A DNA stretch of 46,079 nt from Prorocentrum cordatum (lineage: Eukaryota): the NCBI GenBank assembly GCA_963575745.1, contig CAUYUJ010000192.1:620001-666079 (forward strand), given 5' to 3'. The notes under the pieces are model-generated. The model was not told the DNA's origin and did not search any database. It was given only the letters and a program-made list of their open reading frames with translations. Position numbers and translations under genes: made by a program. Of the stretch, positions 1,521 to 44,364 are shown in pieces (within the stretch, counting starts at the first letter, position 1; every line of letters begins with the position of its first letter).

Positions 1521-1599
1521 ACACCAACGCAGTGTGCGTCCACGCCGAAGTGCACACCGAGGCAGCCCAACGCTGCACCGACACTCCTGTCCAGAGCCG

Positions 1600-3626: not shown

Positions 3627-3668
3627 CTCAGGGGTGGTCACGCCCTTCTCCATCATCTCAGATGTCAC
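3627..3668 (-). CDS. Exon 10: VTSEMMEKGVTTPE
   Basis: gaaccag|GTG ACA TCT GAG ATG ATG GAG AAG GGC GTG ACC ACC CCT GAG|gtttg; phase 0/0. Confidence 0.85.
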
Positions 3669-5183
3669 CTGGTTCGGCATGGGCAAACAAAGAAATACGT
3701 TCCGTCTACATTGCATCCCTCTAGCAACGACCATGACATAAGTTGAATATGGTTGGCTCTGAACATCCGACAGCGTACATAATGAATCTTGCTGATTGTG
3801 CGACGCCGTGCGCAATTTCCATGCTGCACACTCCTAGACACGTGCCAACGTGCAGTGTGGCAAACACCCTGAACGTAAGCCTGGTGCACAGCCATGCATC
3901 AGTCCGCTCTCTGCGAAGGAACGGCGTCCAAGCAAGCTGGAGGCGAGCTCAGACAGTATGAGGCTGGGTAGAGGCAAGCCAAAGTCGGGCGGAAAGCAAA
4001 CTGAACGCAAGCGCGAAGCATTCGGCGGGCCAGGAGCTGAGACCCCCAGGCCCCCCGCCTGACCCCGCCAGGGCCCAAGTGGGCCCCAACGTGGCCCCAA
4101 TGGCCTTCCGCCCGGGCTCGAGCCTCCGTCAGCCACTTCACAGCTTCCTTGCCTGTTGACCGCCAGCCTGTGCGGATCATCTCGGGAAAACAACAGCTGT
4201 TTGGGCTGCTCGCCGTTGCGCTGTGAGACATACCATTTTGGTCAGAAGTTTGTCCCACCTTGGCAACTGCGCGTCCCCGTACGCAACGTGCACACGTCAT
4301 GACAGCGTGCCTTCGCACGTCCGCGCGCAAATGCATGCACTCATGCGTACGGCGTGGCGTGCGTACCCGCGCGACTGCTTCTGCTGCGAGCAGTACGCGC
4401 CAAATGCACATGAGGCATACATGGAAACATGCGTGCGCCCAGTCATGAGTGACTGAAATCTTGACTTATGCATACGCGCTACACTTGCGATTTCCCAGTA
4501 GCGTCTTGGATCGAGCACACACACACACACACGCATGTGCCGATCAAGATACTATGTGCACATACACGTACACGTCGGTCGGAAGGAGCAGGTAGAAGCA
4601 TGAAGTAGGAAGGCGGATATAGTGGATTGGGTCCAGGTCCTCCCAGAGAACAACAAAACACAGCAAAAGCATGCCGATTCTTGAAGTAGGAAGGCGCTTG
4701 AAGTAGATTGGGATCTGGAAATCCAAAAATACCTACTTTCAACGACCGGCGTGTAATATTCTGCACGCATGTGCAGATCATTATATGCACGCGCACGCCT
4801 GCGCGTACACGCAGCGTGCACAAATCAAACTACTTGTTGCCCGTTGCCTGGGCCGCCCCTCCCCCTCCCGTACCGTCCTGACTCGCGCCTGGCGCCCTCT
4901 GGGATTAGCCAGGGGGACCCCCATTCCCACATGGCGACTGCGGCGCAAATTTGCTGACCCTGTCTGCGAGGCGGGGATTTCTCCATATCCACCGCCTGGG
5001 AACCGACGTCCTGGTGCCCCAGCGGGCGGCGGATGTGGATATATGTCGGCCCCCGGGGGCCCGAACATGTCCATATCCACCGCCTGCCGAGGCTCCAAAA
5101 ACTGAACCTCCAGGGCGGTGGTCATGCATAAATCCCCGCCTCGGACTGCCGGCGTGTGGAAGACGCTGTTCTGTTCGACTCGA

Positions 5184-5214
<31 letters not shown>

Positions 5215-8200
5215 GCCGCCGCCGCCGCCGCGTTCAACCCCACTCTTCCCTGGGACCACCGCCGCTCCCCAGCCTTCACACCGGGCCCTCTTCCTCCGCA
5301 CGCGGGCCAGCCAGAGCGAAACCGGAGCGAAACTGGAGCCACGTCGCTGCCGGGTTCGGGGAGGGTCCAAGGAGGGCCAGGGAAAGGTCCCCGGGGGGGA
5401 TCCGCGGGGGACGTGCTGCGGGGGTCCTATATGGGGGGGGATCACAGGTCAGAATGCCCTCCTCCCCCAAGGACAGCCCAAGAGGCCCCCGAGACCGTCC
5501 AAGAGGGCCCCGAATCGGCCAACAATCGGTCCAAGACGCCCAAGATGGCCTCTTGACAGCCCAAGCTGCTTCCAAGACGCTCGAAGGGGCCTCCAAGAGC
5601 ACGCCAAGAGAGCCCCAACAGGCCAAGTTAAATGATTCCCTTCAGGGTTTTGAGAGATTCTGGCGTTCTCGCCTTTTCGGCTTCCAGACGCCCCAAGACG
5701 GCCCAAGATGCCACCAAGATCGGCACAAGAGGCCTCCAAGAGGTTTCCAAGACGGCCCTAAAATGACCCAAGAGGGCCCCAAGACGGCCCAAGAGGCCCC
5801 CAAAACGGCTCAAAGAAGGCGCCCACACGGGAGCCCGAACGAACAGTTCGAGCCCTCGGCCCCGAAAGCTCCCAGGAGGCCCCGAGAGGCCCCCAAGAGG
5901 CCCCCACGAGGCCTGAAGAGGCCCCCCGGAAGCCCGAAGGGACCCCCAAGAGGCTCCCACGAGGCCACCAGGATGCTCCACAAATGCTCCCAAACTGTCC
6001 TCCCAGAGGCCTACGATCGCGCTCCGAAGAGGCCCCACGAAGTATCCCTGAGGACTCTGCCCCACGTCAGCGCGTCGTCGCCGCCGACGCCACCGTCGTG
6101 GTCGTCGTCTCCCTTCAGGGGTGGCGGCACTGGCCGTAAGGTCTTCCCAATCGCAATGATACCGCTCTCCCCTCCCCTCCAGGCAACGCCTGTCAGCACC
6201 AGAGGATGCACAGAAACCTACTCGTCTAGGGAACTGTGCGCAAAACACCGCACAAGGTTCAGAGTGAGGACATTGAACATGATAGCTGAACAAAGGAGGA
6301 CGCCACCCAATCCCCAGGGCATGTGCCTGTCACATTCTCGGACTCTAGGCACCCTGTTCATGCTACGAGCCGTCGCGCGCCTGCAGATTGCGGCGAGGCC
6401 GTGCATATTGCCCTGGCTCGTGGATTGTGCCCACACCCAAGCCCCACCAAATCGCAACAGACGTACTCATGGGCATGTGAGGAAAGGGCTGCAACAACAA
6501 GAAGCAACATAAGTGGCACCTTCAGAATCTGCTGTGCGGGCTCGTCAGTGAAGAATACCTTCGCGCTGAGATCTAAACACACCAAAGCACAGCACGAGCG
6601 CTCTGGCCCAAGCATATGCCTTTGTCTCGCACGAGGTATGATGTCGGACCTTACAGGCAACTTTAGCGGCTGCGATCGTACGTCAGAGAGCTCCTCCGTG
6701 CCAGCCTCGCAGCTCACCGCCGCGTGAGGGCAGCAGGCAAGGACAGCTCTACAGCTGCGAAGGGGCCACCCCGACGGAAGGAGCGAGGATCAGTGCTCCT
6801 GGTGCGTGGCGCGGGACGACCTACCCATCAGAGCACCTCGGCGAGCGCAGTTAAGACTCCGCGCAACCCCCAGTCAGGGGGCCACTCATGGGAGGTCTTC
6901 GTCAGCACGAGCAAGGGCTATGAAACCCGATTCGGGGCACACTGAGCCGGGATTGGGCCGGATTACGCCTGGGGTTCGTCCAGACTGAGCACGAGCAACT
7001 GAGCCAGATCAACCAGGAGTACAAGCCAGATCAAGCGGGACGACGTTGGACGGTTTTCCCTGGGGCCGTAGGCGACCCGAGGAGGGGGAGGGCAAGGAGG
7101 AAAGGAGGTGGAGGAGGAGGAGGAGGAGGAGGAGGAGGAGGAGGAGGACGACGAGGACGAGGAGGAGTAGGAGGAGGAGGAGTAGGGAGGAGGAGGAGGG
7201 GAGGAGGAGGGGGGGGAGGGGGAGAGGAGGGGGGGGGAGGAGGACGAGGAGGAGGAGGAGGAGGAGGAGGAGGAGGAGGAGGAGGACGGGTCGCCGAAGC
7301 CCTTCGGAGAAACTCTCCAAACGACGCCGGATCGGGCCAGCTTTCGGCCAGGGATCCACCACCACCGATTCTGCCTTTCACCTCCCAGGAGCTGCACCCC
7401 GGCCCCAGCGCAGAGGCCGCCCCTGTCGCGGCGCGGCGGCGCAGGCACGTGGCGGAGACCGCGCCGCAGGCTGGGCAGCCACGGCGGGCGAGGAGGAGGA
7501 GGATAGATAGGGGGCTCGATAGGGGGGGGGAGGGAGGAGGAGGAGGAGGAGGAGGAGGAGAGGAGGAGGAGGAGGAGGAGGAGGAGGAGGAGGAGGAGGG
7601 GGAGGAGGAGGAGGAGGAGGAGGGGGAAGGAGGAGGGGGAGGGGAGGAGAGGGGGAGGGGGAGGTGGAGGAGGAGGAGGAGGAGGAGGAGGAGGAGGAGG
7701 AGGAGGAGGAGGAGGAGGAGGAGGAGAAGGAGGAGGAGGCGGAGGAGGAGGGGAGGAGGAGGGGGAGGTGGGGGAGGGGGGGGTGAGGAGGAGGGGAGGA
7801 GGAGGAGGAGGAGGAGGAGGAGGAGGAGCAGGAGGAGGAGGAGGAGGAGGAGGGGAGGAGGAGGGGGAGGGGGAGGAAGAGGGGGAGGGGGGGAGGAGGA
7901 GGAGGAGGAGGAGGAGGAGGAGGAGGAGGAGGAGGAGGAGGAGGAGAGGAGGAGGAGGAGGAGGAGGAGGAGGGGGGAGGAGGTGGGGGAGGGGGGAGGG
8001 TGAGGAGGAGGGGAGGAGGAGGAGGAGGAGGGGAGGAGGAGGAGGAGGAGGAGGAGGAGGAGGGAGGAGGAGGAGGAGGAGGGGCTGGAGGAGGAGGAGG
8101 AGGAGGAGGAGGAGGAGGAGGAGGAGGAGGAGGAAGAGGAGGCCTCTCGACGGCTTCTTGGGGCCCTGGGGACCGAGCCGGGTCGCGGAACAGCCGCCCC

Positions 8201-11200: not shown

Positions 11201-14200
11201 TGGGGGGAGGGAGGCGTCGACGGATGAATGTGGCATGTGTTCGCTAATTTGTTCCGAAGCCTGTATGCACTCGTGCAAACTGCTACCTCCAGCGAGTGCA
11301 TCACTACTAATACGAGGGGGGGAAGCGAGGGGGAGGAGGCCTCCTCCGAAGGCCGCGGGACTTCTCAGAGGCACCACGGCCTTCTGAGAAGTGAATGCTG
11401 TCTTGGGGGAGGGATCCGACAACTTCTCAGAAGGCCGGGGGATCTCCGAGCCTTCTGAGAAGGCCCGCCCCTTCTCACTCCACCCCGGGCTCGTCGCCGA
11501 TCACTGGTTCGGGCAGAGCCTCCGCAGACGAGCGGTCGCATACCATCGCCGTGCGGTACCGCCCGCAGGGGACCGCTCGCGAGCCCTGCCCCTGCCCCCC
11601 ACGACTTCTGAGGGGGGGAGAGGGGGGAGGTCCACGTCGCTCGGGAGCTCCCGAATTCAGTGAGCCCCCCCCCCCTCCCCCTCAGAAATATCGTGGGGGG
11701 TTAGGGGCAGGGCTCGCAGAATGCCCCCCGCAGCCCCGAAGGGCGCACGTCTGGCGGCCGCCCCGCCGCAACACTAGAGGAAAGAGAACTATGCACATAC
11801 ACCGATTCTGGCCAGGACCATCCTGAGCCCAGGATCGGTGCATACGCCCTCTTTCCTTGGCCAGGAAGGTATATGCACCGATCCTGGGTCAAGGATGGGC
11901 GTTGTCAGGATCGGTGCATGTGCATAGTTCCCTTCGCCCGAAACACGCGCGCACGCACGCCGGGCGGCCGCGGCCCCCCGCGCGCAGCCTCTCGGGCCAG
12001 AGGCGGCGCCCGTGCGCGCGCGGACGGGCCCGCCGACGCGCTGCGCCGGGCAGCGCGCGGCCCGCCGCCGCGGTGCTGGGCGCAGGTCGCACGACACCTG
12101 CTCTGCAAGTCGGGCGCGTCCCCCCACAGGGGGAATTTTCGACGAACAAAAAAAAATACCCCCAAAAATGCTCCAGAAGGGTCAAAAAATACCACAACAA
12201 AAATCCCCAGACTATTTTTGTTGGACTACTTTTGCATATTCCCCCTGCAGAGGGACGGGCCCGACTGAACACTTGCTGTTTTCAACCCGCGCCGCCTCGG
12301 GCACGGCACTGACCCGGAGCGGGTCCCCCAAAAAAGCTCAGCAGCTCCCTGCCGTGCTGCCGCCCTGGCACGGCGGTGAAACTCCGCGCGGGCGGCTGGA
12401 TCCGTTGACCGTTCGAGCAGCAAGCGCACCAAGCCACGGTGCGCTGGAGAGAGACCGCCTTCCGACTGCTACAACGGCTGCTGGAACAGATCCGTGAGGG
12501 GACAACTTGCAGGTGACAACCAACTGCCCTCTGTCCGCGAAACTCTAGGAACTGAGCATTGTCGCTTTGGGGTCTGAGCCTAAAGCGAACTACGCAGCCC
12601 GCTGTATCCACCTGTCTGGTGGTAAGAGGCGGACGATGAGGAGCTACCTACAGGGGAGACTATGGAGGAGGAGGAGGAGGAGGAGGAGGAGGAGGAGGAG
12701 GAGGAGGACAGGGGAAGGGGAAGCGTAGGAGAACGACAGGGAGGAAGGGGGGCCGACCTAGAGATGAGGCTTTGGAGAAAGCTGACTACCAGCTGGCTGC
12801 GCACTCCGATCTACCAACCAGCAATTGGCGGTAAGCGAGGGGGGGAAGTGAGAAGGAGAAGGACCTCTCAGAAGGCTGCAGGGCTTCTCAGAAACCGTCG
12901 CGCCTGCTGAGAAGTTTGTTGTCTTCGGGAAGGCTTGGACAACTTCTCGGAAGGCCGGGAGACTTCCGAACCCTCTGAGACGGTCTTCTCCTTTTCACTT
13001 CCCCCCCTCGCTGGCCGCCGAAACAAAAAAGCAGCGGGCGAGAGGACGTTCCCCAGGCCGTCCACCGCGACGGCGCGGACCTCAACCTGGCATCGCCGGA
13101 GAGGGGACAACTTATGGGCAACAGCGCCGGAACGAGGCATCAGGAATACGGTGGCATCCGTGCATCAAAAAGTAAGTACAGGCAAACATCGGGGGTTGCT
13201 AGAGGTGCCCCTGGCCTCAGGTGCCCCCAGCTTTTCGTTCGACATGGAAGCCCCTGGGTCCTCGGGGCCTCGTGAAGGGTGCTCTGGAGGCCGTTCAGAC
13301 CTCCTCGGGAGTCCTGGGGGCACCTTGGGCCAGGGGCACTTCTAGCAACACCCGAAAAAAAGGCAGCCACCAGATCAGGGAAACCGAAGAGGAATAGGCC
13401 GACGACATCCGACACCAGAGACGTCGTCGGAAGCCAGTTGGACCCGAATGGTGAGCGTCGGATCCGAAGGGTCCGCCGATGATCGTCTGCATCGGCCATG
13501 GCCGGCACAGGTCCACAAAAGCAAGGTCCCCACCAAGAAAATACGACATGTAAGATGTGGCCATGACCTGTCTGGCAGACTGGTCAATAACGCGCGGGTA
13601 TTATGTGATGTGTGCTGCGTTGAAGTGGTACTCATGACGAATGGCATTCAACTATAAAGATCATGGCGCTTGATCGAAACTGTACTGAGCAAACTCACAT
13701 CGCGGCCTTACGCGGTCGTTTGCGAGAGTCCCTTGCTCGTCGCGCTGCGTGGAACTGCATCGCGTACGCTCGACCTTGAACGGAAATAGCTCACGTGAAC
13801 GACCAAGCAAGTGGACAGCTTGTGTCACGTAACTCACGCCACATGGCCCCTGATGAAAGCACGACACGGAAGAAGGTTGACACCGGTATGAGTGTGGGAG
13901 TACGCTGCTCTTGATTACCAAATAGCCTCCAATATAATGTTCCCAAACTCGTTCGTGGCATGTAGAATGAAGCATCGCACTATCCATGGTGGTCTGCGTT
14001 AAGTTGGCAGCATCCACCCGACTGTTCAAGATAAGACATCAACACATGAACCGATTGAATTCACGTCTCGACTACGCGTTAGTGTATTTTCTTGTGGTGG
14101 TAACACAAGAGTATGAATCGCGTGATGTGTACAGGTATGGGTAGGACGATGTGTACAATATTCTAGACATGTCCTCGTGGACAAAGTACAGCCTGCAAAG

Positions 14201-26200: not shown

Positions 26201-29200
26201 GGGAACCGTGGAGTGGGGCCATCACTTGGGGGCTTAAGCTGTTGGTCTAGTTTGACATCAGGGCGGCCAAACACTAGCCTTTTTATAACTTACGCCGAGG
26301 GCTAAGAGCACACCACCACAAAAGAGAACTACAACAATCAGCGCTCGGCCCTGCTCTCGAATTCGCCCCCACGTGACGCCAGGGACCACCATTCTGCAAA
26401 ATGTACTGAGCAACTGTACGTCAATACATCAACACATGTCTTCGTCAAACGGGTTCGCAGACCTCCATCGCATCAAAACCAAGAGACATAACCGAGGTAC
26501 ATATTTCTCAGCAAGTCCTGAAGTATGGATGGGACTCTGGTTCGCGGTATCATTGATGCATGTTTCCCGAAGTTTTTAGATTTCAAGCCTGCCACTTCGG
26601 CACCCTCGTGCTCCTCCTCGCGTGTTGCTCCTCCCCATCATCGTGTTCCTGGTGCTCTTGCAACCCAACTTCATCGGCCTCCCCTTTCCTCTTGTCATCC
26701 TCATCCTGCTGCTGAAGCTCAACCCTTTCTGAACAGTCTCCTTTTTCTCGTCTCCCTTTCCCGACATCATACTCAGCATCGTCCCCCCTCCTCGGACAGA
26801 AACCTCATCTTCCTTCCTATTTGCCCATCCTCCAAACATCTCATTAGTTGAGTCCTCAGCATAATCTTCTTGCTCCTCCTCATCCTGCTCCTCCTCCTCC
26901 TCCTCCGCCTCCGCCGCCTCCTCCTCCGCCTCCTACTCCTACTCCTCCTCTTCCTCCTGCTCCTCTTCCTCATCGTCCTCCTCCTCCTCCACCTCTCCCT
27001 CTTCCCTCTTCGCTGCGCTCCCTTCCTCCTCTCGGGGCAGACGCCGCGGGGAGGGCAAGGGGAGGCTGACGCATCAGCTGCAGGTCGATGGTTGTCCCAG
27101 TGGCCCCCAGTGCCGGAAGCTGCAGAACATCAAGGAACGCGGCATAAGCATAAACATTCGAAGGTCCGCGCAGATTCCTGGGATCGGCGCTGGACCCCCC
27201 ATCCCTGGCGCGCGGAGCGCGCCAGGGGCGGCACCGGAAGCGCCGCTGGGGGGGCGCCCAGCGCAGATCCGAGAAATCCGCACGGAGCTCCGACAGCTTG
27301 CAGTCGGACCTGGGACAAAAAAGAACATCCTTCAAGAACATGGGACCTTCCGCCAGCCAAAACACGCAAAATGTCCAAGGGTACCCTTCCCCAGGATGCA
27401 CGACGACATCCGACAAACACGAAGAGCACGAGGGTACCCTCCCCGAGTCGACCTCGACCTTAGACCTCGGTCCGCCGCACACGCAGCGGGCGCCTTGAGC
27501 TGCTCGGCGGAGGGTCCCCGGCGGCCCCGAAGCCCAGGCACCCACAAGATCCTGCGCGCTGACCTGGGTCGATGCACACCTCGTTTTCTTCGATCCGCCC
27601 ACGCTGCAGACCGGGACCTATAATTACCGTGGGCAGGCTGTCGGCGTTCCGCGGGTGCGCGGCGCGTGAGGCCGCAACCGGGATCGGCCTGCACAGTGTT
27701 TTGGGGTTTTCGCTCCACAGGGGCCAACCTAAACAGTGTTGTTCGTTTTCGTTTTGCTTTCGTTTTCCCTCGATGGCCATGTTGCAAAGCGAAAACGAAC
27801 CGAGAGCGGCCCACGAGATCGCCGAAACCCCGCTCAGGTCAGCCCCTGGGCCGCAAAGAGCGCAAGGGTGAAACTGAGAGCGAGGTGCGAGGCGGGGAAG
27901 CGGTGCTTCGGGGATCTGCTGACCCGGGCCAACCCAAACCCGGGCCAGTCGGGCTCTGCAGGACCCCGCAGGATCCTCCGGAATCCGGCAAGATCCTGCG
28001 CGCTGACCTGGATCGATGCACCCCTGAGGGAGAACGATAGGGGGAACTGGCACATGGGGGGTCCGACGCCGAGGCGCGTGGACACAATTCTAACTGCAAT
28101 GGCGGCAGACAGCGGACTGCCAAGCCACCCCGTCTCTCAGATCTGCTGGTCCAAGAGCAGCACGTCGTTGTACTTGACCAGTCCATTCGTCGGCCTGGAA
28201 TCGGCGATACACCGCCAGTAGATTAGCGATAGGCCCCCGATCGCGAACCCGCACGTTCCGGAGCAGCGGTTGAGGCTCTCGGGCCCCTTCTGGCGATCGG
28301 TGGGCGGCCGGGGGCCGAGGCGTCCCCCCCCTGCGCCTGCACCCACCCGTCGTTGGCGCAGGATCCTGCAGGATCCGGCGCTCTGGCCGACCCCCGCTTG
28401 CACTGGCCCCGTCTCCAGGCTCCCTTTAGCTCGGGCCTGTCCCCCTATAGAGGCCGCTTCGCGAGGCAAACTGACACACTGCCAAAAACTATACCTCAAA
28501 TATATTTCAAAAAGGTATATTTCAAAAAGGGTATATTTCAAAAAGGTATATTTCAAATGTATTTCAAAAAGATATATTTCAAAAAGTATATAACTATACT
28601 TCAAATATATTTCAAAAAGGGTATGGAAAAGTCGAGGACTACTCCCCAGTTCACGCTTCGACCGTTTTTGAATACTCCTCCATGTGGGGCGCCGTGCCCG
28701 GCCAGCCGGGGCGCGCCTGCTTGCCGCTGGCCGGGGCGCCGTCGCTGGCGAGCTTCACGTAGGCCACCTGGCGGGCCGGCGTCCCCTCGGCTGCCCCCGT
28801 CGCGCTCCCGCTGCGGCCGGCTCCTCCTCCCCCTGGCGGCGCGCAGAGGGGGGTAGGGGGAGGGGGAAGGCTTCTTAGAAGCACCCCTGCTTCTCAGGAG
28901 GTGCGGGCCTTCTCTGCAGTTGAGAGGCCGGCGCCTTCTAAGAAGCAGCATCCTTCTAAGAAGCCTTCCGCCCTCCCCCTACCCCCTTCTGCTCGCCGCC
29001 AATCCCCCACTTTTCCGAGCCCGGCGTTGTCGCTCCACTTCGGGCCCGGGGACCGTCACAAATCGATCAGGCTCGAAGACTGGCGCAGAAAGGGGGGGTC
29101 TGGAGGTCCAGTCTTGAGTTTTTGTGAGGGTGCGGGGATGAAAAAAAAGCACGGCTGCCCACCCACCATGCCTAGACCAACTATGCCTATGCAGCAATCT

Positions 29201-32200: not shown

Positions 32201-35200
32201 CAGGCGGGCTCAGCGGCCCCCGCGAGCCCTGCGGAGTTCTGCAAACCCCAGCAGGAAGTCGGACTTCAAATAATGTCTGCACCCAGGCCCCCCCAGAGGA
32301 GGTGCCCGGTACCTCAGCCCGCAGGGGTAGGGTCCACAAATGGTCGCAGACTGTGAGTCGTGGCGTGAGGGGACGTCTGGCGCATGCAAGAAGCAAGTCC
32401 TGGAGGAAATGGCGCCCTGGGAAAGCTTCTCCGTTCTGGGGCCCCTGGGTCCACCACGAGCCCCAGGACCGTCAAAAAACTGCTCGGGACGGAGAACTGG
32501 TCATGAGACCCACCGAGGGCATCTTTCCTTCGTGGCGAGAGGACCGAGGATCGAGGACCGAGAATTAGTCACCGTCGTCGTCGAAAGAACGACGAGAATC
32601 AAGGTTCTGGTGCGTCTTTGTGCCTCCTTCGCCTCCTGCGGGGGGGCGTCAGGGGACTTCCCGAGGCCTACGAAGGCACTCTGGACCTCCAAAAACGTCG
32701 AGAGGCAGTCCGATACCAGTAAGGGTTCGAGGCGGGGTGCGGTCCTCACCGGCCCAGGCTTGAGCCCCGCCCCCGCTGATGTTGCATCCCCGTCTCCCCG
32801 AAACCGCCCAGAGCACTAACGCCATCGTGCTATTTTAGAAGGCAACTCCTGGGAGGTCCTCGGCAGAACGGTTCAGGGCTAGTGAGGCTGATTTATCGGC
32901 CAGTGTGAGCCAGGTTTGCACAGGTGAGGCCCAAAATTGACCCAGGATGAAGCCCAGGACCGAGCGGGAGTCGACGGCATCAATCGGGAGTTAGCCGGAT
33001 TGGGCCAGATTTTGACCACGGATATGCCAGCGGACTAAAACCTCCCAGGAATGCTGGACTAAACCTCACAGGAATGCTGCAACCCAGAACAACAGAACAA
33101 ACGCCACAAACATAGACTTTTGGCGCTCCGCGCGGATCTCTTGGATCTGCGCTGGACGCCCCTCCCTCGCGCGGAGCGCGCCAGGGGCGGCGCCAGAAGC
33201 GCCGCCGGTGGGGGCCCAGCGCGGATCCAAGGAATCCGCGCGGAGCGCCAAAAGTTTGTGTCCGTGGCGTTTGTTGATCTCCTGTTGTTCTGGGTTGCAG
33301 CATTCCTGGGAAGTTTCATCCTCGAAGCACAAGTAACGGGCAACGCAGTTTTTCCCCCTCGGAGCAAGCAGCGGGCGACGGGTTGCAGACTTCCTGGGAG
33401 GTCTGCGTCGAACTCCTTCCCCTCGAGAGCAGGGACGGGCGGGCTCTGCCGGCCGCGGCGAGCCCCGGGCCACGAGCGACAGAGACTTGCCCCAGGCCAA
33501 GAGGAATCCCGGGAGCGGCCAAGGAGCTGGGGCCCACACCCGGGATCCCGAGCGAGCGAGCGCTCTTTCGTTCGGCGTTTCGACATCGGGCGGAAGGGGA
33601 GGGGGGGAGGGGGGAGGTCGGGCTCCGAACCTCTGCTCAGTGCGACAGTTTGCGGCAGTGCGGCCTCTGGGGGAGGAGCCCCACCTGCTCGAAACAGGCG
33701 CCACAAACGGCCACGATCTACTCCATGGGAGGGGAGGAGGAGGAGGAGGAGGAGGAGGAGGAGGAGGAGGAGGAGGACGAGGCGGAGGAGGAGGAGGAGG
33801 AGGAGGCGGAGGAGGAGGAAGGGGGGGGTGCTGTCGGCCACGTCGGTCGGAGAGACATGGCCGCTAGCATTCGAGCATTCGAGGAGGGGGGGGTGCGAGG
33901 GCCCGCGCCGAACGGCAAAACAATGAATACAAAACGCCCACCGAGGGGTTCTGTCCTCCCGCTGCATCGCACGGGCGACTGTAGCACTCGGGAGCGCGGG
34001 CGGGAATACCCAAAACTCCCGTCGACGCCACAGATTCCGGTCGGGCATGCCCCTTTACAGGAGGAGTACTCACAAAATGATCAAGAATAATAGGGTGACG
34101 ATGTTTCTACAATTTAGTTGATTATGTTTGAACATATCTTGACCATACTTTAATTGTTCGTCCATGATCCGACTGTAGGAGGACACGCCCGACATAATCC
34201 TGGGTACCGAAGGACGCCCAGAAAATGAGCCCAAGCATATACAAAGAAACAAACACCCTCGAGGGGCATCGCCACACCTCGAACCTTCCTGGCCTCCACT
34301 AGCCGACGCCTGCAACTAGAACGGAAGACGAAGACGAATGAAATGGCCGAAACGGGGCCCGCCTTCCCGCTGGCAGGCGAGGAGGCGATGAGGTACCTGC
34401 AAAGCTCATGGCATCTGAAAAGAACCCGCGGCAACCGCTCCCACGCCAGTGCATCTCTGTCGCTGCCGTCGCTGCGTCAGCACTCGGTACTATTGTGCCT
34501 GCCTCATAAATAAGACCGCCCTCTGCACACCGGTACCAAGCAAAATATGGCAGCATGGCTTATCCTGGATCTGCCCTCTGAATGCAGGCGAGAAAATGTG
34601 GTTGAATTCGCTATTCGCGCAAATACTGGGTCCTGGATGCCATGCTGAACGCCTTGGCCTACCGTTGAATCTCGCAGCGCAGAGTTGTTGTTATCCTGCT
34701 TCGAACCCAACGAGTTCCTCCACCACGAATCCTGCTTTGAACCGCAAGGAGCGGTAACTACGAGGACAGGCCTTCCAATACTGCGGCGAATGGCACAGAC
34801 AGCCAGCACTACTGGAAGACAACTCGATATCAATAAACAGACTCGGAAAAAAAACTACCCTACCAACCCTTCGGGCACAGGTGGTATAACGAGCTCCTCC
34901 TGCTCCTCTTCCTTTCCCTCCTCCTCTTCCTCCTCCTCCTCCTCCTCCTCCTCCTCCTTTCTCCCTCTTCCAAGACCCCTTCTCCCCCGCTTCGGATAAA
35001 GGCTGGGGAAACCAAAAGGCACCGAAACACCTGTCCCGGGGTGCGGGCTGACCAGGATTTCGAGGCGGACCCAGCGGTGGCGACGAGGGCCTCCAGGAGG
35101 GCCCAAACAAACGAGAACTACGGGGAAAAAATGTACTAGCAGTATCGGTACCGTTTTCCTCACCTCGGGAAAAGGGCAACCCGCCCCCTCGCAGGGCCGA

Positions 35201-37515
35201 AACCGCCCCCGCCCCTGCAGCAGCGAAGGCGGCGCGGCGCGGGGCGCTTGTGGTTGCCGGAGGCTTGTGCTCCTCACCGACGCCGCGGTGCGCGCGCGTC
35301 GCGGAGGGGGGCGGGGGAGGAAGGGGAGGAGGCTGGGAGGGTCCCTACGTGATGTGAAAAACGCTGGGGGGGGGTCCTGTTCCTGGGCTTCTCCTGCTTG
35401 GGGACTATTGTTCGCGCCGTTTTCGGTTCGGCTCCGAGTCGCACTGCGGCTCGTTTCCCCTTCCTTTTTCCCCAATCAGAGCTTGCCTCTGTAGGGGTCC
35501 TAGCGGATTCATATGGGCAGGTTAGGTTTGCCGCCGATTTTCGCCGCACGCCTGGGTGCCCGGGTGCCCGGGGGAGCCGTGGTGCCGGGTGCCCGGGTGC
35601 CCGGGTGCCCGCGGGCCGCGGGCGTGCCCGGGGGTGCCCGGGTGCACGCCCGGTAGCCCTATAGCCTTATAACACTAGAGCCTTACAATCGGACTTGATT
35701 GGAGAGGACACGCGAGAGGACACAAGACCCTTCCGAGAGCCACGTTGCCACAGAAATGCAGGGGGCATGGGTCGCAAGACACAGGACACGAGGGTGCCCT
35801 TGATCTGGCAGGGTCGACCTACTAATCCGGTCCGTCTGTATTAGGCAGATCAATCACGAGCGGCGAACATACCCGTATCTGCGCCCCTGCGGTCTGGACT
35901 CTGGGGGCGCAATCCTGCAAATACGCCGCCGCACGGGTACGCTCCACGCGGGGCATCCGCGAAAGAACGTAGCAGGGTCGCCGCCCAGGTGAGGGGCAAC
36001 GATAGGGGGGGACTGGCATAGGGGGGGGGTGCATCGACCTGGAATCGGCGACACATCGCCGAGACATCGGCGATAGGCCCCCGATAGTGAATGCGCACCT
36101 TCCTGGGCGGGTTGGTATCATCAGACCCCTGTCGGCGATCAGTGGGCGATTGGGGGTCGATGCATCCCCCCCTTGTGCCTATCCCCCCTATCGCTGCCCC
36201 TGACCAAGGGCCCCGCCCGCGAGGCCGCAGATGCGGGTATGTCCGATTACCCCTCAGCAACACGCAGGAGTGACCCTCGGCAAGGAGTGACCCATGGCCA
36301 TCGCTCGGACGTCCATTCCCTTTTTTTTGGTTTCGTGCGTGGTTTTTTCGCCACATGGTCAAGGATGCTCCTCGATGGCCCTCGCCGAAGGAAAAATGCA
36401 CGCGTCCGAGCGATGCCAAGGCAAGGAGTGGCCTGGCCTCTGGTGCACGACTCCCGGCGGGCCGCGGGGAGGCCGGACCCGAGCGCGCAGGACGCCGCCA
36501 TCGCAGCGCGCTCGGTCATCGGGGAACCCTTTGTGTGCCCGCACCGAGGAGCACAAATATTTGTGGTTTCTGTATTTAGTTGATTTGTTTTTTGATTTTT
36601 TGTTTTTTTAGTTGGTCTTAATTGAATAGAAACATATTAATGTGATGTGAATAAGCCAATAACAAGCTCAATGTATAAAGTGTTTGACGTTTCGATTGTA
36701 TGTTCAATCTTCAAGAAAGTTTTCAACGCAACATTCTATGATTCGACAATCACGATATGTCAGACCGACATCGGACTGCATGTGGGTTACCTCCTTTTAA
36801 ACAAGAAAAATAAATGTTCGCATTTAACTGCTGAAACAACACAAAGCAATCAACTGCTTGCAGTGAAAGGTCACTCTCTTATGAAGGGGCCCTGGGACAC
36901 ACACATAAATACACACTAATAAAATGATTCCCTATATGTTCCTATATTTTTGGAGTTTTTTGTCTTCCCGCCCAATTCCCATATTTCCCCGTATGTTCCT
37001 GGGACTCGACGATTAATTGTGTCTGTGTGTTTCTTTCCCTCCTGATCTTAACCCGTCGGTCAGAAGAAGTGGGCAGGAACTGACTACCTACCAGACCACC
37101 CCAACCCAACCCGAAGGCCCGAATTCGACCCGAATTTCGGGTTGGGGGGGGTACGGATACCATGTGTTTTTTCGACGTTCCCCGACCCCCCCCCACTGGA
37201 AATCGATGATAAATTTGGGCCTTCGGGTTGGGTTGGGGTGGTTTGGTGGGTGGTGAGGAACGGGTTGGGCCTGGAAGGCTTTGGAAGCAGATCGGCCTTC
37301 CGCCCGCCCCCTGAAGAGGAAGGACAGGAAACAAAAACACCCGACGATCGAAGTAGGAAGCACCTGAAGCAGACTGGGACTTGGGCGTGCAACAAAACCT
37401 ACGGGTACCACGGGCACGTGTGGCCGAATCCCTCCCAACTCAAGGGACGTCCTTGGCCGACCAGCGCTGCCGCCACGGCCACGACGAAGCCGTGGAGGCG
37501 GCGGCCGCCGGCCAT
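3627..37515 (-). CDS. Spliced gene (at least 10 exons, 3'-incomplete) encoding a predicted secreted NHL-repeat / SMP-30-gluconolactonase-like beta-propeller protein; join(37462-37515,35053-35090,34363-34396,28717-28767,17998-18062,16831-16909,14455-14484,13048-13086,6520-6558,3627-3668)
   Basis: Ten exons, each internal one bounded by AG|G and a GT or GC donor, join with matching phases into a stop-free 157-aa frame. It has an N-terminal hydrophobic signal and consecutive propeller-blade motifs (LKYPQGIAVD..GKLFVAD; AVAVDGLGNVFFTDE..ILKV). Assembled by eye, with no transcript evidence; no further exon found in 1-3626. Confidence 0.88.
4571..4753. mobile_element. MITE with TA target duplication (Tc1/mariner-type)
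   Basis: ta|cacgtcggtcg...aggta and tacct...cgaccggcgtg|ta inverted termini. Confidence 0.7.
5131..6151 (+). mobile_element. Non-autonomous CCAAGA-rich element bounded by AAT, with 3' GC motif and small hairpin
   Basis: Starts aatccccgcc; core of ccaagacggcc/ccaagaggcc repeats; ends cttcaggggtggcgg..ggccgtaaggtc..ccaat. Related to 15769-16548 and to minus-strand copies at ~39300-39520 and ~41800-44270. Confidence 0.6.
6520..6558 (-). CDS. Exon 9: VFFTDEPAQQILK
   Basis: gcgaag|GTA TTC TTC ACT GAC GAG...CTG AAG|gtgcc; directly continues the D-G-x-G-N-V-F-F-T-D NHL motif. Confidence 0.92.
7081..8140. repeat. (GGA)n polypurine tracts (7081-7290, 7490-8140)
   Basis: Seen directly. Similar GGA/CCT tracts at 10443-10735, 12663-12710, 21383-21470, 21690-21830, 26870-27000, 33728-33825, 39925-40160 and 44828-45160. 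Confidence 0.95.
8320..8488. mobile_element. MITE, ~40-bp TIR (TCGGGTGTTG family)
   Basis: tcgggtgttgttagaagtgcccctggcccgaggtgccccca / tgggggcacctcgagccaggggtacttctagcagcacccga; second copy at 13189-13355. Confidence 0.85.
9016..9176. mobile_element. MITE, GTCGGGC family, ~10-bp TSD (Mutator-like)
   Basis: TIR tcggtcgggcgtgtcctcctacagg / cctggaggggggcaggcccgactga; flanks tgcgttgact / ggcgttgact. Confidence 0.85.
9868..10054. mobile_element. MITE, TTCTCAGAAG palindromic family
   Basis: ggcggcgagc..ggggggaa..gaaggagaaggccttctcagaagg / ccttctgagaagccttctccttttc..cccccctcgc; copies at 11313-11498, 12827-13019, 28835-29000 and degenerate at ~45515-45620. Confidence 0.8.
10076..10242. mobile_element. 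MITE, GTCGGGC family
   Basis: Same TIRs; flanks acgccagcgt / acgccagcgg. Confidence 0.85.
11112..11213. mobile_element. Short MITE
   Basis: ccctcccccaaactcaatgttgg / ccaaccttgaacattggggggaggg imperfect inverted termini. Confidence 0.6.
11313..11498. mobile_element. MITE, TTCTCAGAAG family
   Basis: Shares the cttctcagag/ccttctgagaag repeats and gacaacttctc core with 12827-13019. Confidence 0.7.
11579..11718. mobile_element. MITE with ~40-bp TIR
   Basis: gcgagccctgcccctgcccccacgacttctgagggg / cccctcagaaatatcgtggggggttaggggcagggctcgc. Confidence 0.75.
11780..11935. mobile_element. Foldback (near whole-length palindrome) element
   Basis: gaactatgcacatacaccgat..cccaggatcggtgcata mirrored by tatgcaccgatcctggg..atcggtgcatgtgcatagttc. 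Confidence 0.8.
12106..12268. mobile_element. MITE, GTCGGGC family
   Basis: Same TIRs; degraded TSD (acacctgctc / acacttgctg). Confidence 0.8.
12827..13019. mobile_element. MITE, TTCTCAGAAG family
   Basis: TIR ggcggtaagcgagggggggaagtgagaaggagaag / cttctccttttcacttccccccctcgctggccgcc. Confidence 0.85.
13048..13086 (-). CDS. Exon 8: VEVRAVAVDGLGN
   Basis: atgccag|GTT GAG GTC CGC GCC GTC GCG GTG GAC GGC CTG GGG AAC|gtcct. Confidence 0.92.
13189..13355. mobile_element. MITE, second copy of the TCGGGTGTTG family
   Basis: Same TIRs and internal cagcttttcg..gggcctcgtga..gctctggaggcc core as 8320-8488. Confidence 0.85.
14455..14484 (-). CDS. Exon 7: VSPMQTVAEN
   Basis: ggggag|GTG AGT CCG ATG CAG ACC GTC GCA GAG AAC|gcccc (GC donor); 30 nt, phase 0/0; supplies the linker between blades. 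Confidence 0.82.
14951..15068. mobile_element. MITE, GTCGGGC family (internally deleted)
   Basis: taggtcgggc / gcccgactta; flanks aaactagaat / aacctagaat. Confidence 0.85.
15769..16548 (+). mobile_element. CCAAGA-rich AAT-bounded element inserted in an (aactgcaacc) repeat region
   Basis: gaat|ccgccgtcc...cttcagggggtt..gacgcaaacctcttgaat; the host repeat lies on both sides (15530-15768, 16550-16690). Confidence 0.65.
16831..16909 (-). CDS. Exon 6: (R)GKLFVADPSLNKLVSYTLHRSSDALT
   Basis: ccgaag|G GGG AAG CTC TTC GTC GCA GAC...CTC ACG|gtcgc; the phase matches exon 5; G-x-L-F-V-A-D blade motif. Only partly covered by the ORF track. Confidence 0.92.
17079..17220. mobile_element. MITE, GCGCGGAGCGCGCCAGGGGCGGC-core family
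   Basis: TIR actcggagatccg..gatttctcggatc / gatccgagaaatccgcgcggacctccgagt; related copies at ~27120-27295 and 33069-33308. Confidence 0.8.
17998..18062 (-). CDS. Exon 5: AMRTLIDTNLKYPQGIAVDSY+AG
   Basis: gggcag|GCA ATG...TAC AG|gcagc (GC donor, phase 2); NHL-like motif L-x-x-P-x-G-I-A-V-D. Confidence 0.92.
18123..19639. mobile_element. TIR/foldback element carrying a 1.1-kb (ACTGTCCCC/ACC) minisatellite
   Basis: Arms share ggttccc, cttcgaaaatt, ggtcactac, gttcgaaccc and ggcaaacg in inverted orientation; satellite at 18378-19497. Confidence 0.7.
20733..20969. mobile_element. MITE with ~45-bp near-perfect TIR and 4-bp TSD (TAGA)
   Basis: taga|ggcctcctagatggggtcggagtagatggggtcggaggatcgcgcc ... 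ggcgcgatcctccgaccccatctactccgaccccatctgggaggct|taga; internal gcatcggcgat repeats. Confidence 0.88.
22032..22192. mobile_element. MITE, TGAAGGGG family, 5-bp TSD (GAGGG)
   Basis: gaggg|tgaagggga..acacacaaataaatacacac..cccctcctga|gaggg; copies at 31365-31524 and 36882-37045. Confidence 0.85.
22327..22502. mobile_element. Stowaway-like MITE (CTCC...GGAG, TA TSD)
   Basis: ta|ctccagatttcgtaataga ... ttttattacgaaatctggag|ta. Confidence 0.85.
22565..24055. repeat. 99-bp tandem satellite, ~15 copies
   Basis: ggtccca at 22731, 22830, 22929...; unit ggtggagctccctatggggccacgaagcgctgtactgggt..gggggacgcatgcgggcggtcccactgggggcttc. Confidence 0.95.
24262..24708. repeat. 11-bp (AAGCTAAGCTA)n satellite, ~40 copies
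   Basis: Seen directly; followed by a 23-bp duplication ctcccaggggactgggggaaccg. Confidence 0.95.
25020..25330 (+). pseudogene. Possible highly decayed Ty1/copia RNase H remnant
   Basis: Frameshifted fragments AIS..VEA.QW..LFDP and IIVASCDAKGL/YSAL resemble the copia RNase H (T/C)DAKxLYD motif; weak. Confidence 0.3.
28427..28705. mobile_element. GTCGGGC-family MITE carrying a (TATATTTCAAAAAG)n minisatellite
   Basis: Degenerate TIRs; AT-rich repeat at ~28490-28625; ends 11 bp from the exon 4 donor; no TSD seen. Confidence 0.6.
28717..28767 (-). CDS. Exon 4: VAYVKLASDGAPASGKQ
   Basis: cgccag|GTG GCC TAC...AAG CAG|gcgcg (GC donor); every codon ends in G or C. Confidence 0.85.
28835..29000. 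mobile_element. MITE, TTCTCAGAAG family
   Basis: ~48-bp TIR ggcggcgcgcagagggggg..gcttcttagaag / cttctaagaagcc..ttctgctcgccgcc. Confidence 0.85.
29653..29813. mobile_element. AT-rich Tc1/mariner-type MITE (CAG...CTG, TA TSD)
   Basis: ta|cagggcaggttttaatacat ... gtgtattagaaacggcactg|ta. Confidence 0.75.
29883..30036. mobile_element. Purine-rich short element ending tgacgtcc..cccctccctcccatcccttatcatgg
   Basis: Second copy at ~38135-38257 with a near-identical right end. Confidence 0.65.
30095..30266. repeat. Degenerate (GCATA/GCATG)n pentamer repeat
   Basis: Seen directly. Confidence 0.7.
31113..31255. mobile_element. Foldback element of inverted (gaaggattgcaaaaaa) repeats
   Basis: 3 direct copies followed by 4 inverted (t)gcaatcctt copies. 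Confidence 0.75.
31365..31524. mobile_element. MITE, TGAAGGGG family
   Basis: Flanked by aacatc / aacatc; same core. Confidence 0.85.
33069..33308. mobile_element. Long-TIR version of the same family
   Basis: caggaatgctgcaacccagaacaacag..ttttggcgctccgcgcggat / atccgcgcggagcgccaaaa..ctgttgttctgggttgcagcattcctg (~80-bp arms). Confidence 0.85.
34037..34196. mobile_element. GTCGGGC-family MITE, reverse orientation
   Basis: gtcgggcatgcccctttacaggaggagtactc ... ctgtaggaggacacgcccgac; no TSD seen. A further right-end-only copy lies at ~20530-20648. Confidence 0.75.
34363..34396 (-). CDS. Exon 3: (W)YLIASSPASGK
   Basis: tttgcag|G TAC CTC ATC GCC TCC TCG CCT GCC AGC GGG AAG|gcggg (GC donor). Confidence 0.82.
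35053..35090 (-). CDS. Exon 2: ALVATAGSASKS+TG
   Basis: ctggag|GCC...TCC TG|gtcag; the phase-2 end is completed by the G of exon 3 (TGG=W); finishes the signal peptide (A-T-A-G cleavage-like). Confidence 0.7.
35864..36245. mobile_element. MITE with nested TIR pairs
   Basis: Outer cgaacatacccgtatctgcg / cgcagatgcgggtatgtccg; inner aggggcaacgataggggg..gtgcatcgacc / ggtcgatgcatccccc..cctatcgctgcccct. Confidence 0.75.
36882..37045. mobile_element. MITE, TGAAGGGG family
   Basis: Flanked by tctta / tctta; same core. Confidence 0.85.
37085..37255. mobile_element. MITE with long TIR
   Basis: accaccccaacccaacccgaaggcccgaatt / aatttgggccttcgggttgggttggggtggt. Confidence 0.8.
37462..37515 (-). CDS. 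Exon 1: MAGGRRLHGFVVAVAAAL (start codon, signal peptide n/h region)
   Basis: agaATGGCC start, GC3-rich codons, basic then hydrophobic residues; donor CTG|gtcggc, phase 0. Alternative GC donors nearby are possible. Confidence 0.7.
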
Positions 37516-37581
37516 TCTCACTGCGGCGGCGGCGCGGAGCGGCGCGGCAGCAGAGACGTGGCGCGGCCGGCCCGGGCCCGG

Positions 37582-44311: not shown

Positions 44312-44364
<53 letters not shown>

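What the first reader, a model, noticed from the sequence alone, without database searches (positions are those of the whole stretch)
3627..37515. Hidden 34-kb micro-exon gene for a secreted NHL/SMP-30-like beta-propeller
Seen: ten 30-79 nt exons with AG|G acceptors and GT/GC donors join in phase into 157 stop-free aa; only 1.4% of the span is coding and no single ORF in the track reveals it. Established: LxxPxGIAVD..GxLFVAD and AVAVDxxGNVFFTDE are blade motifs of NHL / SMP-30-gluconolactonase six-bladed propellers. Inference: an uncharacterised secreted dinoflagellate propeller (possibly extracellular hydrolase, lectin-like or extrusome/theca protein); the remaining blades should lie left of position 1.
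Basis: partly seen in the sequence, partly recalled or inferred. Interest (0 to 1): 0.8.

Follow-up and report, generated by a model that had tools for sequence, protein, structure and literature searches.

The report
Split dinoflagellate gene for secreted propeller
The ten tiny exons are real and spliced exactly as proposed, and they encode the first half of a secreted six-bladed propeller protein found throughout dinoflagellates, so this is an ordinary but correctly spotted gene.

Summary
Observation confirmed. On the minus strand, ten micro-exons of 25-79 nt between 37515 and 3627 join in phase into 156 stop-free residues. That is 468 nt, or 1.38% of the span. All 9 internal acceptors are AG|G. 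Donors are 4 GT, 5 GC and 1 GA.

The joined peptide is identical at 156 of 156 residues, without a gap, to residues 7-162 of two public 326/334-aa proteins, P0145 and P0146. Both were predicted from intron-less contigs of about 1.1 kb. A related 1228-nt intron-less contig, L123, matches all ten exons in order. It shows 17 synonymous against 4 non-synonymous codon differences outside the signal peptide.

The product belongs to a family of about 320-aa proteins whose named members are all dinoflagellates. A signal-peptide-like N-terminus occurs in 100 of 107 members. The family has two invariant cysteines and a confidently predicted six-bladed propeller (pLDDT 93.5). The fold is closest to YWTD and NHL propellers and a little further from SMP-30-type lactonases.

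The window holds codons 5-162 of 326. The C-terminal half lies left of position 1, and a short 5' exon probably lies right of the window. The intron sizes are in line with published averages for a GC-rich dinoflagellate genome. Function is untested. This is a new member of a known kind, of low to moderate interest.

The parts
37452..37520 (-). Exon 1 as held in the window. In-frame ATG at 37515. Encodes (V)R-MAGGRRLHGFVVAVAAALVGQ(G), the signal-peptide region. Inferred acceptor cag|TGAGA at 37522-37521. Donor GA at 37451.
   Evidence: Sequence read. 3' boundary fixed by 156/156 identity to P0145. 5' boundary inferred: P0145/P0146 read MAADVR and VSSRPRGA upstream, where the window reads AAAAVR and unrelated sequence.
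35248..35272 (-). Exon 2, 25 nt, entered with one base carried over. Acceptor gag|G, donor GC. Encodes (G)AQASGNH(K).
   Evidence: blastn of L123, local alignment, joined translation identical to P0145.
34363..34396 (-). Exon 3, 34 nt. Acceptor cag|G, donor GC. Encodes (K)YLIASSPASGK.
28717..28767 (-). Exon 4, 51 nt. Acceptor cag|G, donor GC. Encodes VAYVKLASDGAPASGKQ.
17998..18062 (-). Exon 5, 65 nt. Acceptor cag|G, donor GC. Encodes AMRTLIDTNLKYPQGIAVDSY(R), an inner strand of a blade.
   Evidence: Its 30-aa context matches blades of Pizza, PknD and LRP propellers in the PDB.
16831..16909 (-). Exon 6, 79 nt. Acceptor aag|G, donor GT. Encodes (R)GKLFVADPSLNKLVSYTLHRSSDALT.
   Evidence: Among 1165 in-phase AG sites downstream of exon 5, this acceptor ranks first for blade-profile score.
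14455..14484 (-). Exon 7, 30 nt. Acceptor gag|G, donor GC. Encodes VSPMQTVAEN.
   Evidence: Listed among candidate exons. Matched by L123 at 96.9%..
13048..13086 (-). Exon 8, 39 nt. Acceptor cag|G, donor GT. Encodes VEVRAVAVDGLGN.
6520..6558 (-). Exon 9, 39 nt. Acceptor aag|G, donor GT. Encodes VFFTDEPAQQILK.
   Evidence: Ranks first of 863 in-phase AG sites downstream of exon 8.
3627..3668 (-). Exon 10, 42 nt. Acceptor cag|G, donor GT. Encodes VTSEMMEKGVTTPE. This is the last exon in the window.
1..3626 (-). First 3.6 kb of the intron that follows exon 10. No further exon was found here.
   Evidence: tblastn and blastn-short with the C-terminal half and 3' part of L123 gave only chance-level hits (best E 1.1 and 0.36).
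37521..46079 (-). Probably the last 8.6 kb of a 5' intron. The exon encoding MAAD plus the first base of the next codon, and the 5' UTR, were not found in the window. This is an inference.
   Evidence: Degenerate patterns for GAMAAD(V) and MAAD(V) gave 0 matches on either strand. The 80 longest ORFs of the window have no significant Pfam family.

Best explanation
The window lies inside one large dinoflagellate nuclear gene on the minus strand.

Shown:
- Ten micro-exons, separated by introns of 0.85-10.7 kb, are spliced at AG|G acceptors and GT/GC/GA donors.
- They form codons 5-162 of a 326-codon mRNA.
- The identical protein is encoded by short intron-less public contigs.

Predicted: the product is a roughly 300-residue six-bladed beta-propeller of the NHL/YWTD/SGL superfamily.

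Inferred: it is made with a cleavable N-terminal signal peptide (MAGGRRLHGFVVAVAAALVGQGAQA|S). Blade 1 starts about five residues after the predicted cleavage site, which leaves no room for a plastid transit peptide. There is no C-terminal membrane anchor or KDEL-type signal. It is therefore most likely a soluble protein of the secretory pathway or the cell exterior. Two invariant cysteines on the inner strands of neighbouring blades probably form a disulfide.

My best guess, also inferred, is that it acts as a ligand-binding module through the top face around the central channel rather than as a metal-dependent lactonase. Invariant R120 and R262 and near-invariant Q72 (L123 numbering) occupy the P-x-G positions on that face.
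For: Splicing and expression:
- L123, a 1228-nt intron-less contig, matches ten window segments in colinear order at 86-98% nt identity.
- The refined junctions give a gapless codon-for-codon alignment, 434/468 nt and 143/156 aa.
- The joined peptide is 156/156 identical to P0145 and P0146. P0145 comes from JGI and Logan contigs of at most 1163 nt, P0146 from a JGI contig of 1084 nt.

Selection: 17 synonymous against 4 non-synonymous codon differences from codon 31 onward.

Family: 242 proteins at E<=0.001, of which 120 were listed at 41-94% identity to L123. Named members are Polarella glacialis, Symbiodinium natans, S. pilosum, S. sp. CCMP2592, S. sp. Y106, Effrenium voratum, Biecheleria cincta, Yihiella yeosuensis and Kryptoperidinium foliaceum.

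Signal peptide: 100 of 107 members starting with M have a 10-residue window of hydropathy >=1.8 before the conserved mature start. Typical ends are AQA|FGE and ALA|FGE.

Cysteines: two columns are Cys in 121 of 121 members.

Fold:
- AlphaFold2 pLDDT 93.5, pTM 0.90, with a helix at residues 9-23 followed by 27 strands.
- VIA-align: LRP4 Z 30.2 (rmsd 2.2, 247 aligned), nidogen 30.1, PknD 24.5, TRIM71 24.9; gluconolactonase 3dr2 22.4, Drp35 21.5.
- The family profile against PDB sequences: Pizza 1e-34, LRP4 3.7e-31, PknD 1.9e-21, with no lactonase among the best 60 of 97.

Gene structure: published P. cordatum averages are intron 4709 bp, gene 24.5 kb, donors GT 24.7 / GC 51.4 / GA 23.8%, and AGG acceptors 79.7% (PMC10666404, passages and Table 2 seen).
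Against: - No RNA-seq run could be laid on the window. Expression of this exact locus therefore rests on identity to proteins from intron-less contigs. An identical paralogue or a retro-copy could be their source.
- P0145 and P0146 differ from the window just upstream of exon 1. I explain this by a 5' exon outside the window, but a paralogue would explain it too.
- The signal peptide was judged by hydropathy and the -3/-1 rule only. No SignalP-type predictor was available.
- The disulfide and the binding face are inferred from the alignment and the secondary structure, because model coordinates could not be inspected.
- 63 of 121 members match Pfam SGL and 58 of 121 match Arylesterase at E<=0.001, and two sources label relatives as lactonases. 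An enzymatic role is not excluded.
- The organism of the window is not identified.
Confidence: 0.85

Rival explanations
1. Same gene and same fold, but the product is an enzyme: a secreted metal-dependent lactonase, arylesterase or lyase of the SMP-30/gluconolactonase/paraoxonase type that hydrolyses an extracellular lactone or ester.
For: - Pfam SGL is matched by 63 of 121 family members and Arylesterase by 58 of 121 at E<=0.001.
- JGI labels some members 'sugar lactone lactonase YvrE', and UniRef labels the Polarella and S. natans members 'SMP-30/Gluconolactonase/LRE-like region domain-containing protein'. These are automatic names.
- Lactonases appear as structural neighbours: 3dr2 Z 22.4, Drp35 21.5, RPA3624 21.5.
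Against: - SGL scores for the gene's own product are below Pfam's cut-off (22.2 and 23.5 bits against 26.3).
- YWTD and NHL binding propellers score higher, both by structure (Z 24-30) and by profile. No lactonase is among the best 60 of 97 PDB hits.
- The invariant and near-invariant residues are mostly the structural P-x-G...D and YVAD-type blade residues. Among the residues conserved in at least 90% of members, the only Glu is E135 of the TDE motif in the third blade. The blade-1 metal-ligand Glu that I recall for SMP-30-type enzymes is therefore not evident. That residue is recalled from memory and was not tested by alignment to a solved lactonase.
Confidence: 0.25
2. The window copy is a silent or decaying paralogue. 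The identical transcript-like contigs come from another, nearly identical copy elsewhere in a highly duplicated genome.
For: - Dinoflagellate genomes hold many near-identical gene copies (PMC10666404, passages seen).
- The 90% cluster around P0020 holds 11 variants, of which the 10 compared are 88-100% identical to the window peptide.
- P0145 and P0146 diverge from the window immediately 5' of exon 1.
Against: - All ten exons are intact, in phase and 156/156 identical to the expressed protein.
- All nine internal acceptors and all ten donors are canonical for dinoflagellates.
- The 5' divergence starts exactly at an AG dinucleotide, as expected for a splice acceptor.
Confidence: 0.07
3. Chance: the exons are motif look-alikes picked by eye from GC-rich non-coding DNA.
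For: - With a generic NHL blade profile, single exons score no better than noise. Control sequences reach 20.2 bits against 20.9 for exon 8.
- My own spliced aligner chained junk exons to similar scores.
- Decoy pieces such as AEEGTVFVGDG (17570-17538) and PRGIVDMSAWIDD (about 435-390) exist.
Against: Ten segments in the right order and phase reproduce 156 consecutive residues of an independently assembled protein without one mismatch. They match a second, diverged cDNA-like contig with a synonymous-biased substitution pattern.
Confidence: 0.01

Closest known systems
Uncharacterised dinoflagellate proteins auto-named 'SMP-30/Gluconolactonase/LRE-like region domain-containing protein' (Polarella glacialis CAE8625446.1, Symbiodinium natans CAE7381719.1) and unnamed (meta)transcriptome ORFs such as P0145
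   Same: - Same length class (about 310-350 aa) and the same N-terminal signal-like presequence.
- Same mature start (K/R)[YF]LI.S.P and same invariant residues, including the two cysteines.
- 50-65% identity over the window's 156 residues for most members. P0145 and P0146 are 100% identical.
   Different: Nothing of substance: the window gene is a member. What this work adds is the genomic exon-intron structure of the first half of the gene.
NHL-repeat six-bladed propellers (Pfam PF01436), e.g. the extracellular sensor domain of M. tuberculosis PknD (1rwi), the Pizza designer proteins derived from it, and TRIM71, TRIM2 and Brat
   Same: - Blade motif P-x-G-[IV]-A-V-D...G-x-[LIV]-[FY]-V-[AT]-D with a period of about 42-48 residues.
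- Pfam NHL above cut-off.
- PDB profile hits: Pizza 1e-34, PknD 1.9e-21.
- VIA Z 24-25.
   Different: - Only 1-2 blades reach the NHL model individually.
- Blades 4 and 6 are divergent (KCYGLC..., no YVAD).
- It is a stand-alone secreted protein without a kinase, TRIM or filamin partner domain.
YWTD (LDL-receptor class B) propellers of LRP4, LRP6, LDLR, ApoER2 and nidogen
   Same: - Best structural matches: Z 26-30, rmsd 2.2-2.8 over about 247-252 residues.
- Both are extracellular.
- FYTDE, VFFTDE and FVYWVNK strands resemble YWTD.
- The L123 protein reaches the Ldl_recept_b cut-off narrowly (22 bits against 21).
   Different: - P0145 itself is below cut-off (17.4 bits against 21), and only 18 of 121 members match at E<=0.001.
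- There is no flanking EGF module. That YWTD propellers are followed by EGF in animal receptors is recalled knowledge.
- Sequence identity is 12-19%.
SMP-30/gluconolactonase/LRE-like (SGL, PF08450) and arylesterase/paraoxonase enzymes
   Same: - Six-bladed propeller of similar size.
- Partial Pfam matches in about half of the family.
- Z 20-22 to solved lactonases and PON1.
   Different: - Below the SGL cut-off for this gene's product.
- Lower structural and profile similarity than to NHL and YWTD propellers.
- A conserved metal-ligand set is not evident among the invariant residues. This was not tested by direct alignment.

Membership tests
Dinoflagellate ~320-aa secreted propeller family (P0020-P0139; Polarella and Symbiodinium 'SGL-like' proteins) | Full-length colinear similarity to family members | tested here: met
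   The window peptide aligns over residues 1-156 without a gap to P0145 and P0146 (100%), to P0021 (90%), and to more than 20 others at 50-65%. Only the N-terminal half of the protein is in the window.
Dinoflagellate ~320-aa secreted propeller family (P0020-P0139; Polarella and Symbiodinium 'SGL-like' proteins) | N-terminal hydrophobic presequence followed by the mature start (K/R)[YF]LI.S.P | tested here: met
   The window encodes MAGGRRLHGFVVAVAAALVGQGAQA-SGNHKYLIASSP. 100 of 107 members have such a presequence.
NHL repeat (Pfam PF01436) | Whole-protein score at or above the curated cut-off (20 bits) | tested here: met
   P0145 scores 30.0 bits and the L123 protein 30.1 bits. 86 of 121 family members match at E<=0.001. 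The window's exons alone gave no NHL hit.
NHL repeat (Pfam PF01436) | Six-bladed propeller built of about 40-50-residue blades | tested here: met
   The AlphaFold2 model has pLDDT 93.5 and 27 strands after the signal helix. Z 24-25 to Lin41, TRIM71, PknD and TRIM2 NHL domains.
SMP-30/Gluconolactonase/LRE-like (Pfam PF08450) | Whole-protein score at or above the curated cut-off (26.3 bits) | tested here: not met
   P0145 scores 22.2 bits and the L123 protein 23.5 bits. 63 of 121 members match at E<=0.001, but that threshold is not the curated cut-off.
SMP-30/Gluconolactonase/LRE-like (Pfam PF08450) | Conserved divalent-metal ligands in the central channel (Glu, Asn, Asn, Asp in SMP-30; recalled, not from a call) | not tested
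   No residue-level alignment to a solved lactonase was made, and model coordinates could not be inspected. Among the residues listed as conserved in at least 90% of members, the only Glu is E135.
YWTD / LDL-receptor class B repeat (Pfam PF00058) | Whole-protein score at or above the curated cut-off (21 bits) | tested here: inconclusive
   The L123 protein scores 22.0 bits (met) and P0145 17.4 bits (not met). 18 of 121 members match at E<=0.001. These are the best structural neighbours, at Z 26-30.
Dinoflagellate spliceosomal gene structure | AG|G acceptors and mixed GT/GC/GA donors | tested here: met
   9 of 9 internal acceptors are AG|G. Donors are 4 GT, 5 GC and 1 GA. Published figures are 80-97% AGG and GT 24-37, GC 44-58, GA 17-24% in five of the six dinoflagellate species tabulated (PMC10666404 Table 2).

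The most novel reading that the evidence does not exclude
The family is not a lactonase at all. It is a dinoflagellate-wide, secreted, disulfide-locked NHL/YWTD-type binding module: a soluble receptor- or lectin-like protein whose arginine-rich top face recognises an extracellular ligand, for example a cell-surface or thecal glycan, a bacterial product or a partner-cell cue. If so, the automatic 'SMP-30/gluconolactonase' and 'YvrE lactonase' labels in public databases are wrong for the whole family.

A second, structural point: the gene exceeds the 46-kb window at both ends, and its exons average 47 nt. That is far below the published 240-nt mean for P. cordatum, so gene finders that work without transcript support could miss or truncate such genes.
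Probability: 0.3. Interest if true: 0.45.

Novelty: new member of a known kind. Interest (0 to 1): 0.25.

Why it matters

For biology the gain is modest:
- It gives the exon-intron structure of one member of a conserved but uncharacterised dinoflagellate family of secreted propellers.
- It shows that the family is closer to NHL and YWTD binding propellers than to the lactonases it is automatically named after.
- It illustrates how extreme micro-exon and long-intron architecture can be in a GC-rich dinoflagellate genome.

No long-standing question becomes testable through it.

Tried and rejected
1. RNA evidence. The look-up of sequencing runs on 8101-18100 listed no RNA holder, so read laying could not be used.

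2. No whole genome is held for the window, and there were no earlier notes.

3. Word-index protein search with a 41-aa context of exon 5 found no candidate. P0145, found later, contains that peptide, so this blank came from the tool's sensitivity for short queries.

4. Pfam on the six exon-bearing ORFs gave only a weak Ldl_recept_b hit for exon 5 (E 0.099). A PDB search with a 33-aa read-through of exon 6 gave nothing.

5. I fetched 122 bacterial and archaeal loci containing PQGIAVD and built generic blade profiles. With these:
- Single exons were at noise level.
- No upstream exon stood out.
- My home-made spliced aligner either chained junk or stopped at exon 5.

6. From those profiles I first inferred that exon 6 runs 94 nt to a GC donor ('longGG' model). 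That was wrong in its last 15 nt. The cDNA-like contig shows a GT donor at 16830, followed by the 30-nt exon 7. My first exon 5 donor (GT at 18003) was also wrong; the real donor is GC at 17997.

7. A search of 1.84 billion representatives with the 31-aa piece found 17 giant NHL+fn3 repeat proteins from metagenome contigs. They are distant relatives only, at 37-50% identity over one blade.

8. Candidate further blade pieces are not part of the transcript: 25639 (FLYVDLGLRSI), 17570-17538, and about 435-390.

9. The 80 longest ORFs have no significant Pfam family.

10. Intron-terminal inverted repeats (introner signature) were not above chance: best 8 nt, against up to 10 nt in 200 control pairs.

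11. My regex count of signal-peptide-like ORF starts missed exon 1 itself, so I discarded it.

12. No DinoSL remnant was seen at the 5' end of L123. The spliced-leader sequence is recalled, and the contig is probably 5'-truncated.

13. Literature searches found no paper on this family (listings only).

Full report
**Where the gene is.** The window is GC-rich (0.52-0.66 in 2-kb steps). Reading the flanks showed AG|G acceptors and in-phase joins. No whole genome is held for the window. No RNA run was listed, and there were no earlier notes.

**First attempts without a transcript.** Single exons are too short for family searches.
- Pfam on six exon-bearing ORFs gave only Ldl_recept_b, E 0.099, for exon 5.
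- A 30-aa context of exon 5 matched the repeated blades of Pizza, PknD, LRP4 and LRP2 propellers in the PDB.
- I fetched 122 prokaryotic loci encoding PQGIAVD and built blade profiles.
- Conditional tests were supportive but not overwhelming. Among 1165 in-phase AG sites downstream of exon 5, the exon 6 acceptor ranked first (15.6 bits; best of 9393 control sites 12.7). Among 863 sites downstream of exon 8, exon 9 ranked first (11.6 bits; control best 10.4).
- Single-exon scores were otherwise at noise level. My own spliced aligner chained junk.
- I wrongly inferred a 94-nt exon 6 with a GC donor.
- A search of 1.84 billion representatives with that 31-aa piece found 17 proteins. The 12 scanned with Pfam were 463-3246 aa, and 10 of them matched NHL, several together with fn3. 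Their conserved ...L.K[IL][IV]SY... motif showed that coding continues past the GTGAGC I had first taken as the donor.

**The decisive result.** A degenerate pattern for FVADPSLNKLVSY found one record in the metagenome collection, L123 (1228 nt, 64% GC).
- blastn of L123 against the window gives ten colinear minus-strand matches at 86-98% identity: 37521-37450, 35275-35247, 34396-34359, 28769-28714, 18064-17997, 16911-16829, 14485-14454, 13086-13046, 6562-6518 and 3670-3625. L123 is therefore an intron-less, cDNA-like copy of a close relative.
- Refining the junctions at AG/GY sites gives exons of 64, 25, 34, 51, 65, 79, 30, 39, 39 and 42 nt. That is 468 nt, or 156 aa.
- Introns are 2179, 851, 5595, 10654, 1088, 2346, 1368, 6489 and 2851 nt.
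- 9 of 9 internal acceptors are AG|G. Donors are GA, GC, GC, GC, GC, GT, GC, GT, GT, GT.
- The CDS aligns codon for codon to L123: 434/468 nt and 143/156 aa.
- Codon differences are 17 synonymous and 13 non-synonymous overall, and 17 against 4 from codon 31 on. GC3 is 0.85. This is the signature of purifying selection on a real coding sequence.

**Identity to a public protein.** Searching with the L123 protein found 242 relatives, of which 120 were listed.
- The members of its 90% cluster include P0145 (326 aa; JGI and Logan; longest contig 1163 nt) and P0146 (334 aa; contig 1084 nt).
- Both are 156/156 identical and gapless to the joined window peptide.
- A locus that spreads these residues over 34 kb cannot yield a 1.1-kb contig unless the template was spliced RNA or a retro-copy. 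Every junction is therefore confirmed at residue level.

**Ends of the gene.**
- At the 5' end, P0145 starts MAADVR-MAGG and P0146 reads VSSRPRGAMAADVR. The window reads ...PLRAAAAVR-MAGG.
- The divergence begins at an AG dinucleotide (37522-37521).
- Patterns for MAAD(V) found nothing on either strand.
- I infer a 5' exon beyond the right end of the window, with exon 1 starting at 37520. On this reading the whole 46-kb window lies inside one gene, and about 1% of it is exon.

**What the protein is.**
- Pfam: NHL at 30 bits (cut-off 20), SGL at 22-23.5 (cut-off 26.3), Ldl_recept_b at 17-22 (cut-off 21).
- Across 121 aligned members at E<=0.001: NHL 86, SGL 63, Arylesterase 58, Ldl_recept_b 18.
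- The alignment has 15 invariant columns, including two cysteines. Most are the blade motifs P-x-G-x-A-x-D and [FY]V[AT]D.
- 100 of 107 members that start with M carry a hydrophobic presequence ending in AxA-like residues just before the conserved mature start.
- AlphaFold2 with this alignment gives pLDDT 93.5 and pTM 0.90: a helix at residues 9-23, then 27 strands.
- Foldseek puts Pizza6 and LRP, LDLR and nidogen propellers on top.
- VIA-align gives LRP4 Z 30.2, nidogen 30.1, ApoER2 29.2, Lin41 25.1, TRIM71 24.9 and PknD 24.5. Enzymes are lower: gluconolactonase 22.4, PAL 21.6, Drp35 21.5, PON1 19.8.
- The family profile hits Pizza (1e-34), LRP4 (3.7e-31) and PknD (1.9e-21). No lactonase is among the best 60 of 97 PDB sequences.

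**Who has it.** All named relatives are dinoflagellates: Polarella glacialis, Symbiodinium natans, S. pilosum, S. sp. CCMP2592, S. sp. Y106, Effrenium voratum, Biecheleria cincta, Yihiella yeosuensis and Kryptoperidinium foliaceum. The species of the window was not determined. Its GC content, long introns and donor mix resemble the figures published for Prorocentrum cordatum. Those are genome GC 59.7%, mean intron 4709 bp, mean gene 24.5 kb, mean exon 240 bp, and GT/GC/GA 24.7/51.4/23.8% (PMC10666404; passages and Table 2 seen). The exons here, with a mean of 47 nt, are much shorter than that mean.

**How it most likely works.**
- Shown: the gene is split, spliced and conserved.
- Predicted with high confidence: a six-bladed propeller.
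- Inferred: co-translational entry into the ER through a cleavable signal peptide (AQA|S); no room for a plastid transit peptide, because blade 1 starts about five residues later; no anchor or retention signal at the C-terminus (...YQPAESA); a disulfide between the invariant cysteines on the inner strands of neighbouring blades; and action as a soluble extracellular or lumenal protein.
- Binding module or hydrolase remains open. I favour binding, at roughly 60:25, because sequence and structure are nearer to NHL and YWTD modules and no conserved metal-ligand set is evident. No residue-level test against a lactonase was made.

**Verdict.** The finding is a correctly deduced but ordinary dinoflagellate gene for a member of a known, uncharacterised family. 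Its product is already present in public collections.

Noticed in passing
window 18256-19480; 22613-24054; 24262-24709; 43195-44256; 7533-8142; 2638-3261: The introns are packed with tandem repeats:
- About 1 kb of degenerate (CCACTGTCC)n units just upstream of exon 5.
- About 15 copies of a 99-nt unit.
- 40 copies of the 11-nt unit TAAAGCTAAGC.
- 335/367-nt repeats.
- Long (GGA)n and (CCT)n tracts.
They create many long spurious ORFs.
   Followed up: partly
window 17570-17538 and about 435-390, minus strand: Two blade-like decoys with usable splice sites: AEEGTVFVGDG, inside the intron between exons 5 and 6, and PRGIVDMSAWIDDLKG. Neither is in the transcript-like contigs. They show how easily micro-exon look-alikes arise in this DNA.
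   Followed up: yes
P0001-P0007 (found with window 16816-16908, minus strand): A group of giant unnamed proteins (784-5597 aa) from metagenome contigs of up to 2 Mb. They carry dozens of about 45-residue repeats with consensus RDEITTGLS.PRAIAFSGGRAYVADS.L.KIISYPVGADGELGA, interspersed with fn3 domains. These are the nearest non-dinoflagellate relatives of the exon 6 peptide, at 44-47% identity.
   Followed up: partly
P0020, P0021, P0140-P0149, L123: The 90% cluster around the gene's product holds variants that are 88-100% identical to the window peptide. Synonymous changes predominate against L123. They may be paralogues in one genome or sister strains or species; this was not resolved.
   Followed up: partly
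window 37521-37530, minus strand: The 5' end of exon 1 appears to use a CAG|T acceptor, the only non-AGG acceptor of the gene. The exon that supplies the first ATG (MAAD...) is not in the window.
   Followed up: partly
all nine introns between 37451 and 3669: No terminal inverted repeats of the 'introner element' kind reported for P. cordatum introns. The best exact match between the first and last 80 nt was 8 nt, against up to 10 nt in 200 random pairs.
   Followed up: yes
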